Of a stretch of DNA of 64,000 nucleotides, positions 18,265-33,200 are shown one piece after another. A program made the translations under genes and the position numbers. Under the pieces are notes generated by a model. The model worked only from the letters and a program-made list of their open reading frames with translations, was not told where the DNA came from and ran no database searches. Source of the stretch: Octopus vulgaris (Eukaryota); contig CATOCA020000001.1 of the NCBI GenBank assembly GCA_951406725.2, positions 8,308,001-8,372,000 of the forward strand. Direction: 5' to 3'. How positions within the stretch are numbered: position 1 is the stretch's first letter; every line of letters starts with the position of its first letter.

Positions 18265-21200
18265 CTGCAAAAGATACAATAAGAAATAATTGCAAAAGCA
18301 TTAACGATAATATAAAACCTGTGAACAGTAAATTATAGATCTGACAAAGAAATTATGTGAATAGACGAATGAGAAATACTGAAGAAAGACGGAAAATAGA
18401 AGACATTGTTATCTGTTTCTAAAGATTTTGAGAAAAATAAGAAACAAGTTGAAACAAAAGCTGGAATTGGAGAAAACATTTAAAGATCGAATAAAATTGA
18501 AAGTTATACATGACAAATCTTCTGGTAAACAACTGGCAGGGGAAGTGTTTGTGTGGGCAGCAGTATACGAAAAGCTCAAGAATCAACAAAGACTACCAAT
18601 AGTTACACCATTTCATCTATCCATTCAAATGCTTTGCCCTCTCTTCATAGGAGGGTTATAAGGGTAGAGTCCTCAGGCACCTCCTTCATACGATTCTATC
18701 TAAAGTAACCTTGATTAGAAATTCTGAGAGAATTTCCAAGCACAACCAATTGAAACTATGGTTTTTATGCAAAAATTAATTCTTGGTTTAGCCCCAGGTC
18801 TTCTGTCAGTTGGCTCAGCTCGATGAATCCCTCTTTTGATTCTTTCCTGAGACATTTTAATCACATGCCGGTAGTATTGGAGCAGCTGTGACCTCTCAAT
18901 GCAGAGAAGCAGTCGTTTGACCTGGAGAGATACCCAAATTTCGAAGCTGCACGCGTTACTCCAGAGACTCCTCAGAGGAACTCAATTTCAGTCGTTTTAA
19001 TAACATCCCATATTCAAAGACTGAAATAGTCACCTGTGATGTGGTCCCTCCTATGATTAGTAAATAATTAAAGATTATCAAAATTCAGAAATATCTCGAA
19101 AGTGGGGAATGACTTCAACGGCACAAAGTAAAAATATAACACTGTTAGGTACATATCACATATTATAGAAGATACCAGCTGAAAAGTTAGTCTTGGAATA
19201 CTGACTCCTAAAAAGGAATTCCTTCACTGGCTGAAGGCCACAATTTCAAAAGAATCTCCTACAGGAGAGGCCCAAGAGTAAGCAAAGCAATGGGAAGAGT
19301 TTTAGTTTGTAGGCAATAACAGAACATCTACACCATACACCTACAACACTTGGGTCCTGAAAGAATCCCTGCATCCTCAAACATCTACATCATCTGGAAA
19401 GTTATCACAATTTATATGCAGGGGAGAGAAAAGGGGTTAATAGGAATTCTATATAGTATATCTAATGTACGCAATAGGTGCAGTGGTATCACAGGCAAGT
19501 TTACAGGGAGGACGGGTTAGGGTTGGGGAAGGACTTTTCAAGTAGCAGATACACGGGATTAGTTTGTAGTAAGAACAAGTATGAAAGACATATAGTTTCT
19601 CTAACCTAAGAGACATAATTAGAAGTGGGTGGGTGGGGGTCTATTCTCAAAGTGCAGTACTTTGAGGAAAAATGGGATGGAAAATGTACAGGGAACTGTT
19701 ATGTCTACTGGCAACTAAGGGATTCTGTCTCCAAATGAAGGAGAGATTGCATGAGGTGTATTTGTAAAGTGCAATGTTGCATTTAATGTAGAGGATGCAG
19801 GAAAACTGTCAAGAAATGAGGTGAGCATACATCACTAGAAGTGTAATGTTAATGTGTTGAAAACCTGGGGTTAGGGAAAACTGGGTCTCAGAAGAATCTG
19901 TGATAGTGCACAATATAGTATAGATTTAGAAGGGATATGGTAAATGAAATTTGGATAAAGAAGTGCCTGGAATTCAAGTGGAAGAAAACAAGCGATTAAA
20001 CCTGACAAACAACCACAACGACTGTGGGAGAAGTCGTCTGACACATACAAACTTGGAGAAATGAACGTAAGATGTTGATTATATTGGACTGGTGTTAATG
20101 GATTGATTTTTACCCCTGTATATGACTGGTACATTTTGTATGACTGCCAGAGAAATAACAAATTAGCAATGTCACAAATGATGTCCTCTCTTAATTTAGA
20201 TAAATCATTTCTATCAGCTGACTGAGGGGATAATGTTACGACCTCTTGAGTCAGGGGTGAAAGGTTCAAATCTAGTCCCCCAACACAGCTCAATGTTCTG
20301 GTAAAGACATCTCTCTTCTGGTTCAGTCTACGAACCACGATAGGGATATTGCTGTAAAAAATAGGAATATTGTATAAATGATATTTTATGTTGTTAAACT
20401 TTCAGACAAGAGGAAATGGGATACTGTGATGTTCATGCCTTTCCAATAAAGGAGAGTGAAATGATTTCAATTGAAAAACAAAATCAAGTTGAGTTTGAAA
20501 TTTCGGATGAGATTCTTTTTTTAACGTGAGTTTCATTAATTTACAATACTGAGTTCAATCCAGCCATGGACACAGTCAACCATGGGGGACTGTTTTCTAT
20601 AGAGACTGGCACTATATATTGACCAGGGACTAAAGAACTACAATCAAAGAGAACACAGCATGTCACACATAATGCAAACTCTCGTGTTTAAAAAGGTTGC
20701 ATTCGATAATGTGGTCCTCTTCATCCAAGAGAAAGAAGGATGTCACATCTGGAAACCTTCCCTCTTAACTCTGCCAGATTAAAACAGATATCTGCCTCAG
20801 CAACAATAACAATAACAACCAATCTGTGAACTTTCCAAAAACGTAAACAAACTAAAACATTGTCATTAACTCACCTGTTTAGTCTTTAACACCATTATTC
20901 TTGAGTCCCCTTTTACAAACGACAATATTAACTCGACTGTATCTTCTAATTCAAATATTTTACACCTGTGCTGACCTCGGTGGATATTTTATGAAATTTC
21001 AGTGATATCTTTACTTTATAGCTAAACTTTCAATTGGAAACTAGGAATGGAATCTGTTCTCAGTCAAAAGTTTAACTGAAAGCAAAATTTATAGAAATCA
21101 ATTAGGTATTTTATACTCACCAAGTTGCTGCCATTTACCGGCCAACTTTTTGGACACCCGATGTAGATGCTTCACCTCTAGCGTTAGTATATCTGAAATA

Positions 21201-30200: not shown

Positions 30201-33200
30201 CTGCAGTATTACAATGTAATGATTCAAAATTTAGGTCCACAACAGCATAAACTACACTTAACAACCCTTCTCTGTCTCTTAAGGCATCCAACAATTCTAA
30301 CAATTCTGAAATTATCTAATTTAATTATCACCTAATAACAACAGATTTTCTCTTAGTTTCGTTTTGGTTTTCTTGTGTTTGTTCCAGATCTATGACAAAC
30401 ATCGTCATTTCACCTCTAGACATCTCTAATCAACATTCGTTTCATCTTCTGCTTAATTCAATTGTCAACCAAGTTGCGTATCGAAGATCCAACCCCAAAC
30501 ACGAAACACCACTTGAGGATATATATATATATATATATATATATATATAAAATCGTAAAAGGTGAAAAAACTACAGAAGGCTTAAATGTTAAAAAATATA
30601 TATATTTGCGTCAATATGTCTGAAGAATATTTAAAAAATTTTTTAAAAATTTGTTTCTCTTATAATGACATAATTACGAGGAAAGACCGGTTTCGCATTT
30701 AGCTTTTCAAATTTCTGGCGACGTTATGTTTATGATGCATAGAGTTGTTCAGGAGAGTTCTAAATAGGGGGAGGTAGTGAGTGATTTCTTCCGGTCTAAG
30801 GGAGATAATCGCTTAAAAATTTTTTCTTTCTTTCCCTTGGTGTGAATTTCTCAGTATGTTCGGATGGTTGAGTTTTGGCTCAACCATCAACACACCCTCC
30901 CCGAAAATACTACCTTACATATCTACATACAACCCCAGAAACAAAGAAGCCTTCACCATCATCACCCAGAATTTACCAATACTTCATAAAGACCCCAAAT
31001 TAAAGGAAATTCTAAACATTCACCAAATCATTAAAAGCTACAAACAACCTAAATCACTTAAAAAGATTCTCACAAAGGCAAAATTGTCTTCTGAAATTAC
31101 GGATGCAAAAGTAAAAAAATGTGGCAGATCGAACTGTGCAACATGTACAAACCTGCTAGAAGGATCAGAATTCCTCTTTAAAGAGGGACAGAAATTCAAG
31201 ATCAAATCTAACTTTACTTGTGCCTCTGAAAACATAATTTATGTCATAAAATGCTCGGGCTGCCATCAAGACTACGTGGGGTCCACGGGACTATCACTCA
31301 GACGTAGATGCACACTGCATCGACAACAGATTGCATTCCCAGAGTACTGAATGATACCTTTTAGTGAGCACATTGAGAAATGCGCAAAGCAACGACTGCC
31401 ACAATTTTTAATCTTTCCATTTTACCAATGTGCTATCGGATCATCAACACAAATTAGATTAAACAAAGAAACATTCTTCATTGAAAAGTACAAGCCCAAA
31501 CTCAACCATCCGAACATACTGAGAAATTCACACCAAGGGAAAGAAAGAAAAATTTTAAGCGATTATCTCCCTTACACCGGAAGAAATCAGTCACTACCTC
31601 CCCCTATTTAGAACTCTCCTGAACAACTCTATGCATCATAAACATAACGTCGCAAGAAATTTGAAAAGCTAAATGCGAAACCGTTCTTTCTTCGTAATTA
31701 TGTCATTATAAGAGAAAAAAATTTTTTTTTAATTTTTTAAATATTCTTCAGACATATTGACGCAAATATATATATTTTTTAACATTTAAGCCTTCTGTAG
31801 TTTTTTCACCTTTTACGATTTTATATATATTCACCCACGTGCTTTCACAAACCAACTTTCTTATCTATATATATATATATATATATATATATATATATAT
31901 ATATATATATACCTGCTCTCTTTGTTATTGGTTACTACTAGTAATCTTTAATCTTAATTACCCACATCACAGTTCTCCAGAAAGTAATCAGATGTGGGGA
32001 AATATCTGAAGATATTTCAATGTCATTCATCCTCCTGAATAAAGCAGGTCGAACAGAAAGTGACATCAGGTCTAACATGAAGTGATATCTCGTGTCCTAA
32101 ATTAGCACACTACATTCACACAAAACCTCATTAACGACATAAAACTTATCGTCCACACATTATTGCTGTGAAAATATTTGAAACGGTTCAGAAGAACTGA
32201 TCCTCAGGAATACTAATCTATACATCAATCAAAGTTTCCCACCCTTTTGATGTCCCCTCTCTTATGTTGTTCCCTAAACCCTCAGTTGAGATTTTCTTAT
32301 TGAGTCTCCTATTTTATAAAGGCTCACTCTGATATTCATATAAATGCAGTTGTTTTTAATTATCAGCTTCCGAAGATATTGATAATTCATTAATCACTCT
32401 AATCACACACAAGATGTCGGTATTTACTGATAGAACCTTGGTGATTTATTGGTATTTAGTCAACATTTATAATTCAGTATTCTTTATTATTCTTACGTTG
32501 CAGAAAGCAACCATCTTGAAGTGTGACAAGTCTTCTAATTGGACAAGAACAATGTTTTGTGGGAGTAGTGAGAGACATAATATGACAGAGAAAAGACACA
32601 TGGAACATCTTTTATTAAAAGTGTGCTTGATTAACGCAAAACTGGATCTACACAACAATATGAAATACAATATTCCACACCATAAAGCCCACGAGACAAA
32701 CAGACAGATCATACTGTATTCTTACCCAAACTATTTTTTCTCGTTATCTTCTGTCCACACTTGAGGCATCGTTTAGGTATCTTTTGGGGACAGCATTTCT
32801 TACACAGCGAAAGATGTTTACATGGAAAGAACGTCTCTGTGGCCACTTCGTCATCACAAAACACACATCTGAGGAACAAAAACATGAACACATCCCATTA
32901 ATAACATTCACTTATAACAAATATTACATTGTGTGCGTATTTACAGTAGAGAATATTATGCGGCACCACAATTAAACAATTACATATGGGCGAATTTGTG
33001 TGAACATCTTCCAAACTACAACAAAAACAAACACTTTTTCCACATCCTCAGAAATGCATTCATGATAACAGTCTCCAATCTTTTCATACATGTGGCTTCA
33101 ATTACTGAAGGATTGACTGGGATGCCTTTCACTGTCCCCTAAAAACAACTTCTTTCGTTTTGTGTTGGATTCAAACTAGTCCCATGTAGTCATCTCTCCC

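What the first reader, a model, noticed from the sequence alone, without database searches (positions are those of the whole stretch)
20600..32260. Four ancient tandem genomic duplications built the RING-to-death-domain linker from phase-1 micro-exons
Seen: exons 9-12 share flanks (+ strand ctgaaataaa(c/t)-- acceptor side, tatttt…actcacc donor side). Each is accompanied by ~1 kb of recognisably homologous but heavily diverged intron (units about 20600-22600, 22600-25400, 25400-26800, 29975-32260). Three exons kept exactly 51 nt, open frames and both splice sites while the surrounding DNA decayed. Inference: purifying selection on linker exons. Symmetric phase 1-1 exons can be skipped in any combination, giving up to 8 in-frame isoforms that tune RING-DD spacing.
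Basis: partly seen in the sequence, partly recalled or inferred. Interest (0 to 1): 0.7.

Follow-up and report, generated by a model that had tools for sequence, protein, structure and literature searches.

The report
Octopus ligase linker of LC8-motif exons
An octopus gene for a likely ubiquitin ligase builds the stretch between two of its domains from repeated copies of one small exon unit, and two of its three copies carry a short motif predicted to bind the pairing protein LC8, so the copy number, which differs among the gene's many relatives, would likely tune how these proteins pair up.

Summary
The four repeat units are real (62-69% identity over 0.4-1.4 kb) and all four exons are spliced in. 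They belong to an intact 477-aa ankyrin-RING-death-domain gene of an expanded Octopus family, which this scan noted before on other DNA (e1-8662395).

Corrections: four units need three duplications. The 72-nt exon 12 is the first death-domain exon, not linker, and likely the source of the others. The 51-nt exons are no better conserved than their introns (49-67% versus 65-72%); only splice sites and frame are kept.

New here: exons 10 and 11 each encode an LC8 (dynein light chain) motif, DKVMQTL and DKASQTE, in a predicted disordered linker. A model places the exon-10 motif of a near-identical relative in the LC8 groove (0.73, best control 0.01), possibly from memory of solved complexes. Across 36 paralogues intact linker exons number 0-9. 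RING and death-domain types are recombined, with switches inside the array.

Against: 19 of 36 paralogues lack a consensus motif, and motif constraint is only suggestive. No skipping junction appeared among the RNA joints listed; database isoform models show skipping, but paralogues lacking an exon can mimic it.

The parts
58947..59029 (-). coding exon 1 (ATG)
   Evidence: 100% to P0025
50214..50371 (-). exon 2, ankyrin repeats
49033..49078 (-). exon 3, ankyrin repeats
46602..46756 (-). exon 4, ankyrin repeats
45578..45614 (-). exon 5, ankyrin repeats
41945..42154 (-). exon 6, ankyrin repeats (AAG acceptor)
   Evidence: the frame stays open to the final stop with this acceptor
36406..36581 (-). 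exon 7, last ankyrin repeats
32726..32868 (-). exon 8, RING finger (C3HC4_3), ends in phase 1
   Evidence: Pfam PF13920 E 1.3e-7; joint 30056-32726
30006..30056 (-). exon 9, 51-nt linker exon; poor LC8 motif (2 of 6, proline at -3)
   Evidence: joints
25969..26019 (-). exon 10, 51-nt linker exon; LC8-type motif DKVMQTL (4 of 6)
   Evidence: joints
23390..23440 (-). exon 11, 51-nt linker exon; LC8-type motif DKASQTE (5 of 6)
   Evidence: joints
21121..21192 (-). exon 12, 72 nt, first exon of the death domain; same repeat unit as exons 9-11
18056..18264 (-). exon 13 coding part, rest of the death domain and stop
   Evidence: loose end at 18265 matches the end of exon 12
20743..22381 (.). repeat unit A (holds exon 12)
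   Evidence: self-comparison
22602..24654 (.). repeat unit B (holds exon 11)
25413..26776 (.). repeat unit C (holds exon 10)
29979..32612 (.). repeat unit D (holds exon 9), split by an insertion
   Evidence: homology at 29979-30531, 31898-32212 and 32530-32612
30549..31822 (.). insertion in unit D with about 330-bp inverted ends (96%) and a broken ORF with a weak GIY-YIG hit; probably a transposable element
   Evidence: E 0.053, under the cut-off

Best explanation
Exons 9-11 are in-frame copies of the same 1.5-2.5 kb unit that holds the first death-domain exon, likely derived from it, and two of them encode a motif predicted to bind LC8, which would pair two ligase chains between the RING and the death domain. 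Shown: homology of units and exons, splicing, frame, motif match, copy-number variation (0-9 intact linker exons per gene) and mosaic RING/death-domain pairing with switches inside the array. Inferred: the direction (death-domain exon first), unequal crossover between units as the engine of gain, loss and domain swapping, real LC8 binding, and an effect of LC8-driven dimerisation on ligase or death-domain signalling. Selection acts on splice sites and frame, and probably weakly on the motif, not on the linker as a whole. Exon skipping is a possible second dial and is not shown for this gene.
For: Units and exons homologous: (76 unique linker exons match their best death-domain first exon at 55% ungapped against 34% shuffled, best 47/72, same frame). 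Linker-free members join RING straight to the death domain (P0076, P0050, P0066). Decayed 72-nt copies sit just upstream of an intact one. Frame: 128 of 136 linker units are 3n long, and 0 of 121 with 3n length and GT carry a stop. Motif: against [D/S]KX[T/V/I]Q[T/V][D/E] (PMC3078936), 30 of 70 unique peptides score 4 or more of 6 and 12 of 70 score 5 or more; residue shuffles give means 4.4 and 0.3, maxima 10 and 2 in 500. Death-domain first exons score at most 2 in that register (19 of 19). DKGVQTD in paralogues resembles the gephyrin site EDKGVQCE (PMC12057147). K-x-V-Q-T units also occur in three O. bimaculoides proteins. Omega is 0.43-0.46 at five motif codons (LRT against 1, P about 0.005) and 0.85-0.91 at the other eleven. 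The linker has pLDDT under 50 at 325-369 of P0008. Complex model, LC8 of G000 x2 with P0008 339-372 x2: score 0.73, best control 0.01. That mark was reached by 51 of 78 solved complexes and 2 of 108 mismatched pairs; the runs agree in at least 80% of contacts; partner pLDDT is 53 or more; the interface is the exon-10 motif. Mosaicism: one RING class pairs with four death-domain classes (56-68% identical to each other), and this gene's death-domain class pairs with two RING classes (61%); matches to this gene begin or end inside units C and B.
Against: 19 of 36 sampled genes have no intact exon with [KR]x[TVIMS]Q[TV], and many recent copies lost Q or T. 10 of 150 random five-codon sets have omega as low as the motif set. 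Position +1 (T) changes more often than any other (15 changes). K at -3 and Q at 0 already occur in some death-domain first exons, so part of the match may be inherited. The shuffled-peptide test treats related copies as independent. LC8-peptide complexes are solved, so the model may pass from memory; the tool is not calibrated for peptides or disordered chains; and a sister-species stand-in (E in place of V at -2) was folded, not the window's own exon. The intron tree does not resolve the direction of duplication (p-AU 0.28 for one death-domain clade). Among close copies exons 11 and 12 differ about twice as much as their introns, which fits diversification or gene conversion better than stasis.
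Confidence: 0.55

Rival explanations
1. The linker exons are near-neutral spacers: duplicates of the death-domain exon unit that are tolerated because they are symmetric, kept only at splice sites and frame, and the LC8-like motif is a leftover of one ancestral copy with little or no function.
For: Omega near 1 outside the motif; motif constraint not significant against random codon sets; no consensus motif in 19 of 36 genes; 8 of 136 units out of frame and 7 of 136 without GT; some genes manage with no linker exon.
Against: Several diverged exon classes, and O. bimaculoides proteins, keep K/R-x-[VTMS]-Q-T while neighbouring positions differ; two copies match 6 of 6; the model binds in the expected register.
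Confidence: 0.28
2. One reading: the exons are cassette exons whose combinatorial skipping sets the RING-to-death-domain distance, and spacing rather than a binding motif is what matters.
For: Phase 1-1 and 3n lengths; database isoform models lacking one to three units in O. sinensis (465/448; 481/464/447/430 aa) and O. bimaculoides (424/407; 563/545/528 aa), and one locus with models numbered up to X22.
Against: All consecutive junctions of this gene were seen, and no skipping joint was among the rows listed (contigs drop rare forms and the tables were cut). Paralogues with near-identical exons but no exon-10 unit can fake skipping. Length already varies in the genome from 0 to 9 units.
Confidence: 0.12
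3. The array matters mainly as a recombination platform that reshuffles ankyrin-RING halves against death-domain types in a diversifying, probably immune, family; the peptide it encodes is secondary.
For: Mosaic pairing and switches inside the units; P0025 matches exons 1-9 at 89-100% but not the death domain, while P0008 matches RING to the end.
Against: Mosaicism may be a by-product of any repeat; breakpoints also lie outside the array (between ankyrin exons); chimeric assembly of close copies was not excluded.
Confidence: 0.05

Closest known systems
Mind bomb E3 ligases MIB1/MIB2 (database names of these proteins are 'MIB2-like')
   Same: Ankyrin repeats followed by a C3HC4_3 RING; the MIB1 ankyrin region is among the fold matches (8v0e).
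   Different: No MIB-HERC2, ZZ or Mib repeats found by Pfam in three relatives, one RING only, and a C-terminal death domain. The MIB domain layout is recalled, not from a call.
Multivalent LC8/DYNLL clients (ASCIZ, 53BP1, KANK1 L2, GKAP; search listing and abstracts)
   Same: Several TQT-like motifs in a disordered stretch.
   Different: Here each motif has its own exon, likely descended from a folded-domain exon, and the number varies among paralogues. Binding is predicted only.
Myosin Va exon B (passages of PMC3613824 and PMC3078936)
   Same: An exon decides whether LC8 binds.
   Different: One 3-residue exon completing one site, with proven alternative splicing; not an array, and not from tandem duplication.
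Symmetric exons encoding disordered motifs that arise by internal tandem duplication (PMC3632108, abstract)
   Same: Phase symmetry, disorder, tandem origin, short motifs.
   Different: The source here appears to be a helix-coding exon of the protein's own death domain, and the array lies in a fast-recombining gene family.

Membership tests
Mind bomb (MIB1/MIB2) | N-terminal MIB-HERC2/ZZ and Mib repeats (recalled) | tested here: not met
   Pfam on P0008, P0018 and P0003 gives only Ank, RING and Death; the window ORF is 477 aa and starts 26 residues before the first ankyrin exon
Mind bomb (MIB1/MIB2) | ankyrin repeats followed by a RING | tested here: met
Mind bomb (MIB1/MIB2) | two or three C-terminal RINGs and no death domain (recalled) | tested here: not met
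   one RING, then Death
LC8/DYNLL client | motif [D/S]KX[T/V/I]Q[T/V][D/E] | tested here: met
   exon 11 scores 5 of 6 and exon 10 scores 4 of 6; exon 9 scores only 2 of 6 (consensus)
LC8/DYNLL client | motif in a disordered segment | tested here: met
   pLDDT under 50 at 325-369 of P0008; a prediction
LC8/DYNLL client | binds the LC8 groove | tested here: inconclusive
   model 0.73 against best control 0.01, but like complexes are solved and peptides are outside the calibration
LC8/DYNLL client | measured binding and LC8-dependent dimerisation | not testable with these tools
   needs the bench
LC8/DYNLL client | motif conserved by selection | tested here: inconclusive
   omega 0.43-0.46 against 0.85-0.91, but 10 of 150 random sets are as low
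Tandem-duplicated cassette exon array | homologous units, symmetric phase, 3n length | tested here: met
Tandem-duplicated cassette exon array | included in transcripts | tested here: met
   CT..AC joints or matching loose ends for all five junctions from RING to exon 13, in runs guessed to be RNA; near-identical paralogues may supply them
Tandem-duplicated cassette exon array | alternative skipping in this gene | tested here: inconclusive
   none among the joints listed; isoform models in relatives are confounded by paralogues
Active RING E3 ligase | ubiquitin transfer activity | not testable with these tools
   inferred from the RING match only

The most novel reading that the evidence does not exclude
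An octopus family of dozens of ankyrin-RING-death-domain ligases turned copies of its own death-domain helix exon into one-motif-per-exon LC8 docking cassettes. Unequal crossover, and perhaps splicing, then sets LC8 valency gene by gene and swaps death domains, giving a genetically tunable dimerisation dial on a variable sensor-ligase family.
Probability: 0.35. Interest if true: 0.78.

Novelty: new variant of a known kind. Interest (0 to 1): 0.58.

Why it matters
If binding holds, this is a traceable case of a linear motif born from an exon of a folded domain (helix to beta-strand ligand), with living intermediates in one genome: intact death-domain exons, decayed 72-nt copies, 72-nt motif-bearing copies, and 51-, 78- and 36-nt forms. 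Natural paralogues with none to five consensus motifs on the same scaffold would make the effect of LC8 valency on a RING ligase directly testable. It also gives a candidate mechanism for how a large, poorly annotated octopus family reshuffles its sensor and signalling ends. If binding fails, it remains an ordinary symmetric-exon expansion.

Tried and rejected
Sequence-level purifying selection on the three exons: rejected. Exact 51-nt length as evidence of selection: too weak (18% by chance). Exon 12 as linker: rejected. 18.74-19.05 kb as a further exon: no Pfam hit for the one stop-free frame scanned and no family protein match; not needed for the ORF. Direction of duplication from an intron tree (32 representatives of 132 long-intron units, of 176 units): unresolved, with long branches. 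Ancestral-state counting failed and was replaced by parsimony counts. Run search: no RNA holder listed on record; 14 holders are guessed RNA, and introns are covered too, so depth was not used. ESM Atlas gave no usable hit. Foldseek returned only ankyrin matches among the rows listed. Literature: 'Octopus vulgaris'+MIB2+genome gave 0 papers; searches listed nothing on this family, its linker or LC8 binding (listings only; subscription journals and supplements not seen); PMC9068888 has no mention of ankyrin, death domain or ubiquitin in its main text. Outside Octopus: of 20 hits looked up, 17 are Octopus and 3 are long proteins of starfish and fish that matched through the death domain; the rest were not named, so absence from squid or other molluscs is not shown.
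Full report
Setting. The window is G000:C31:8308001-8372000. Database proteins named Octopus vulgaris and O. sinensis match its exons at up to 99-100%, so this is an Octopus genome. A minus-strand gene of 13 coding exons gives an open 477-aa frame with AG/GT at every intron: ankyrin repeats (exons 2-7), one RING (exon 8), three 51-nt exons, and a death domain (exons 12-13). Pfam confirms RING and Death on the window's own exons and the whole layout on relatives. It is not a Mind bomb protein despite the database names.

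Observation. Self-comparison gives four units, 62-69% identical over 0.4-1.4 kb, with 0 hits in 10 of 10 shuffles. Pairwise intron distance is 0.35-0.48 substitutions per site. Splice flanks are conserved (22 of 27 columns invariant against 47%, P about 3e-4). The exons are not: 49-67% ungapped identity, with pN near or above pS. In neutral simulations all three exons stay 51 nt in 18% of cases and stay fully intact in 1.3%. So selection keeps the exons spliceable and in frame, not their sequence. Exon 12 encodes the first death-domain helix and cannot be skipped without breaking the domain.

Expression. In contigs of six runs guessed to be RNA, CT..AC joints appear at 21192-23390 and 26019-30006 (several runs) and 30056-32726 (one run). 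The exon 11-10 junction appears as a joint at 23441-25971 in one run and as matching loose ends in another, and the exon 13-12 junction as a loose end. No skipping joint is among the 15 of 59 and 15 of 18 rows listed. Exons 11 and 12 are identical in several paralogues, so these joints show the family's splicing rather than this copy's alone. Database isoform models differ by whole units in O. sinensis and O. bimaculoides. But paralogue C31:5.83 Mb lacks the exon-10 unit in its DNA and would produce the same exon 9-11 junction.

Family. G000 holds at least 135 matches to the last death-domain exon, some broken, and at least 40 to the RING exon (40 of 88 candidates scored). I examined the window plus 38 fetched regions, chosen from these lists where RING, unit or death-domain matches lay close together; this is a sample biased to close relatives. 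They hold 176 units with the same flanks: 40 death-domain first exons and 136 linker exons. Lengths are 51 (94), 72 (14), 78 (13), 36 (5), 66 (2) and 8 not divisible by three. None of 121 in-frame GT copies has a stop. The 36 regions with a RING carry 0-9 intact linker exons. On C29 the unit has shrunk to a 166-bp period (31 of 44 short spacings).

Origin. Linker exons align without gaps and in frame to death-domain first exons (mean best identity 55% against 34% shuffled; the window's three score 22, 24 and 27 of 48). Members with no linker exon exist in O. bimaculoides and O. sinensis, and decayed 72-nt copies lie just upstream of intact ones. I infer that the death-domain exon came first; the intron tree neither shows nor rejects this. 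Related 17-aa units in O. bimaculoides suggest an origin before that split, about 34 million years ago by bioRxiv 10.1101/2023.05.16.540928 (passages).

Motif. The LC8 consensus is [D/S]KX[T/V/I]Q[T/V][D/E] (PMC3078936, first part of the text read). Exon 11 matches 5 of 6, exon 10 4 of 6 and exon 9 2 of 6; two paralogous exons match 6 of 6; death-domain first exons match at most 2 in that register. Of 70 unique linker peptides, 30 score 4 or more and 12 score 5 or more, against shuffle maxima of 10 and 2 (copies are related). On 65 unique 16-codon sequences, omega is 0.43-0.46 at positions -4, -3, -1, 0 and +1 (LRT P about 0.005) and 0.85-0.91 elsewhere; death-domain first exons give 0.72, not different from 1. 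However, 10 of 150 random five-codon sets are as low, and 19 of 36 genes have no consensus copy. The linker is predicted disordered. Two copies of G000's LC8 with two copies of P0008 339-372 scored 0.73 against a best control of 0.01, a mark reached by 51 of 78 solved complexes and 2 of 108 mismatched pairs. The runs agreed in at least 80% of contacts, partner pLDDT was 53 or more, and residues 342-353 (the exon-10 motif) lay in the groove, with Q350 near LC8 35-36 and 62-63. This shows likeness to known LC8 ligands, not binding.

Recombination. Among 36 genes, one RING class pairs with four death-domain classes, and this gene's death-domain class pairs with two RING classes. The window gene shares RING through exon 10 with one set of paralogues (about 95%) and exon 10 or 11 through exon 13 with another (93-97%), with switches inside units C and B. 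Unequal crossover between units would explain gain, loss and swapping together; chimeric assembly is not excluded.

Mechanism and verdict. Most likely (0.55) the array is an expandable, recombining linker in which some exons supply LC8 sites that would pair two chains next to the RING and death domain. That RING ligases and death domains often act as dimers or oligomers is recalled knowledge. A near-neutral spacer is the main rival (0.28). Spacing by combinatorial skipping (0.12) is possible but not shown. Each ingredient is known: symmetric exon duplication (PMC3632108, abstract), multivalent LC8 clients (listing) and exon-controlled LC8 binding in myosin Va (passages). Their combination was not found. 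The family itself was noted earlier by this scan on other DNA (e1-8662395); a word search of earlier notes for LC8 with octopus found none holding all the words. New variant of a known kind; interest 0.58.

Noticed in passing
window 30549-31822: Insertion with 330-bp inverted ends (96%) and a broken ORF with a weak GIY-YIG hit, splitting unit D; related ends at 47711-48048. Paralogue alignments break across this stretch, so it may be recent.
   Followed up: partly
G000 C29 arrays, e.g. L062, L064-L066: Some 166-bp-period linker exons have gained a C-x-x-C (CPRC, CPKC, CPMC) while losing the Q; neighbouring copies could form a zinc site. Untested.
   Followed up: no
L031-L032 (C31:7.29 Mb): After a complete death domain, a second exon-10 copy and a second death-domain first exon follow: a duplicated 3' end or alternative last exons.
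   Followed up: no
G000 C1:216.93-216.97 Mb and C1:102.71-102.73 Mb: Tandem arrays of stop-containing copies of the last death-domain exon, the first with a period of about 3.6 kb.
   Followed up: no
window 18740-19050 (-): Coding-looking, broken stretch in the last intron; no Pfam hit on the one frame scanned and no family match.
   Followed up: partly
window 36900-40050 (+), 16000-17700 (+), 28200-29500, 55700-57300: Decayed transposon-like remnants (LINE-like, helicase-like, DNA-transposon-like and non-LTR-like by eye; labels recalled). Pfam gave nothing relevant for the five frames scanned in the last two.
   Followed up: partly
P0067, P0072, P0078: Close death-domain relatives outside the family are O. 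bimaculoides proteins named RIPK1 and an LRR adhesion GPCR with a C-terminal death domain: candidate sources or partners.
   Followed up: partly
P0147-P0159: One O. sinensis locus has isoform models numbered up to X22 that differ by 12- and 17-aa linker units and a short 5' trim of the death-domain exon.
   Followed up: partly
window 9922-10021, 10700-14600, 50400-55300: A 100-base assembly gap and two multi-kb purine or pyrimidine low-complexity tracts.
   Followed up: no
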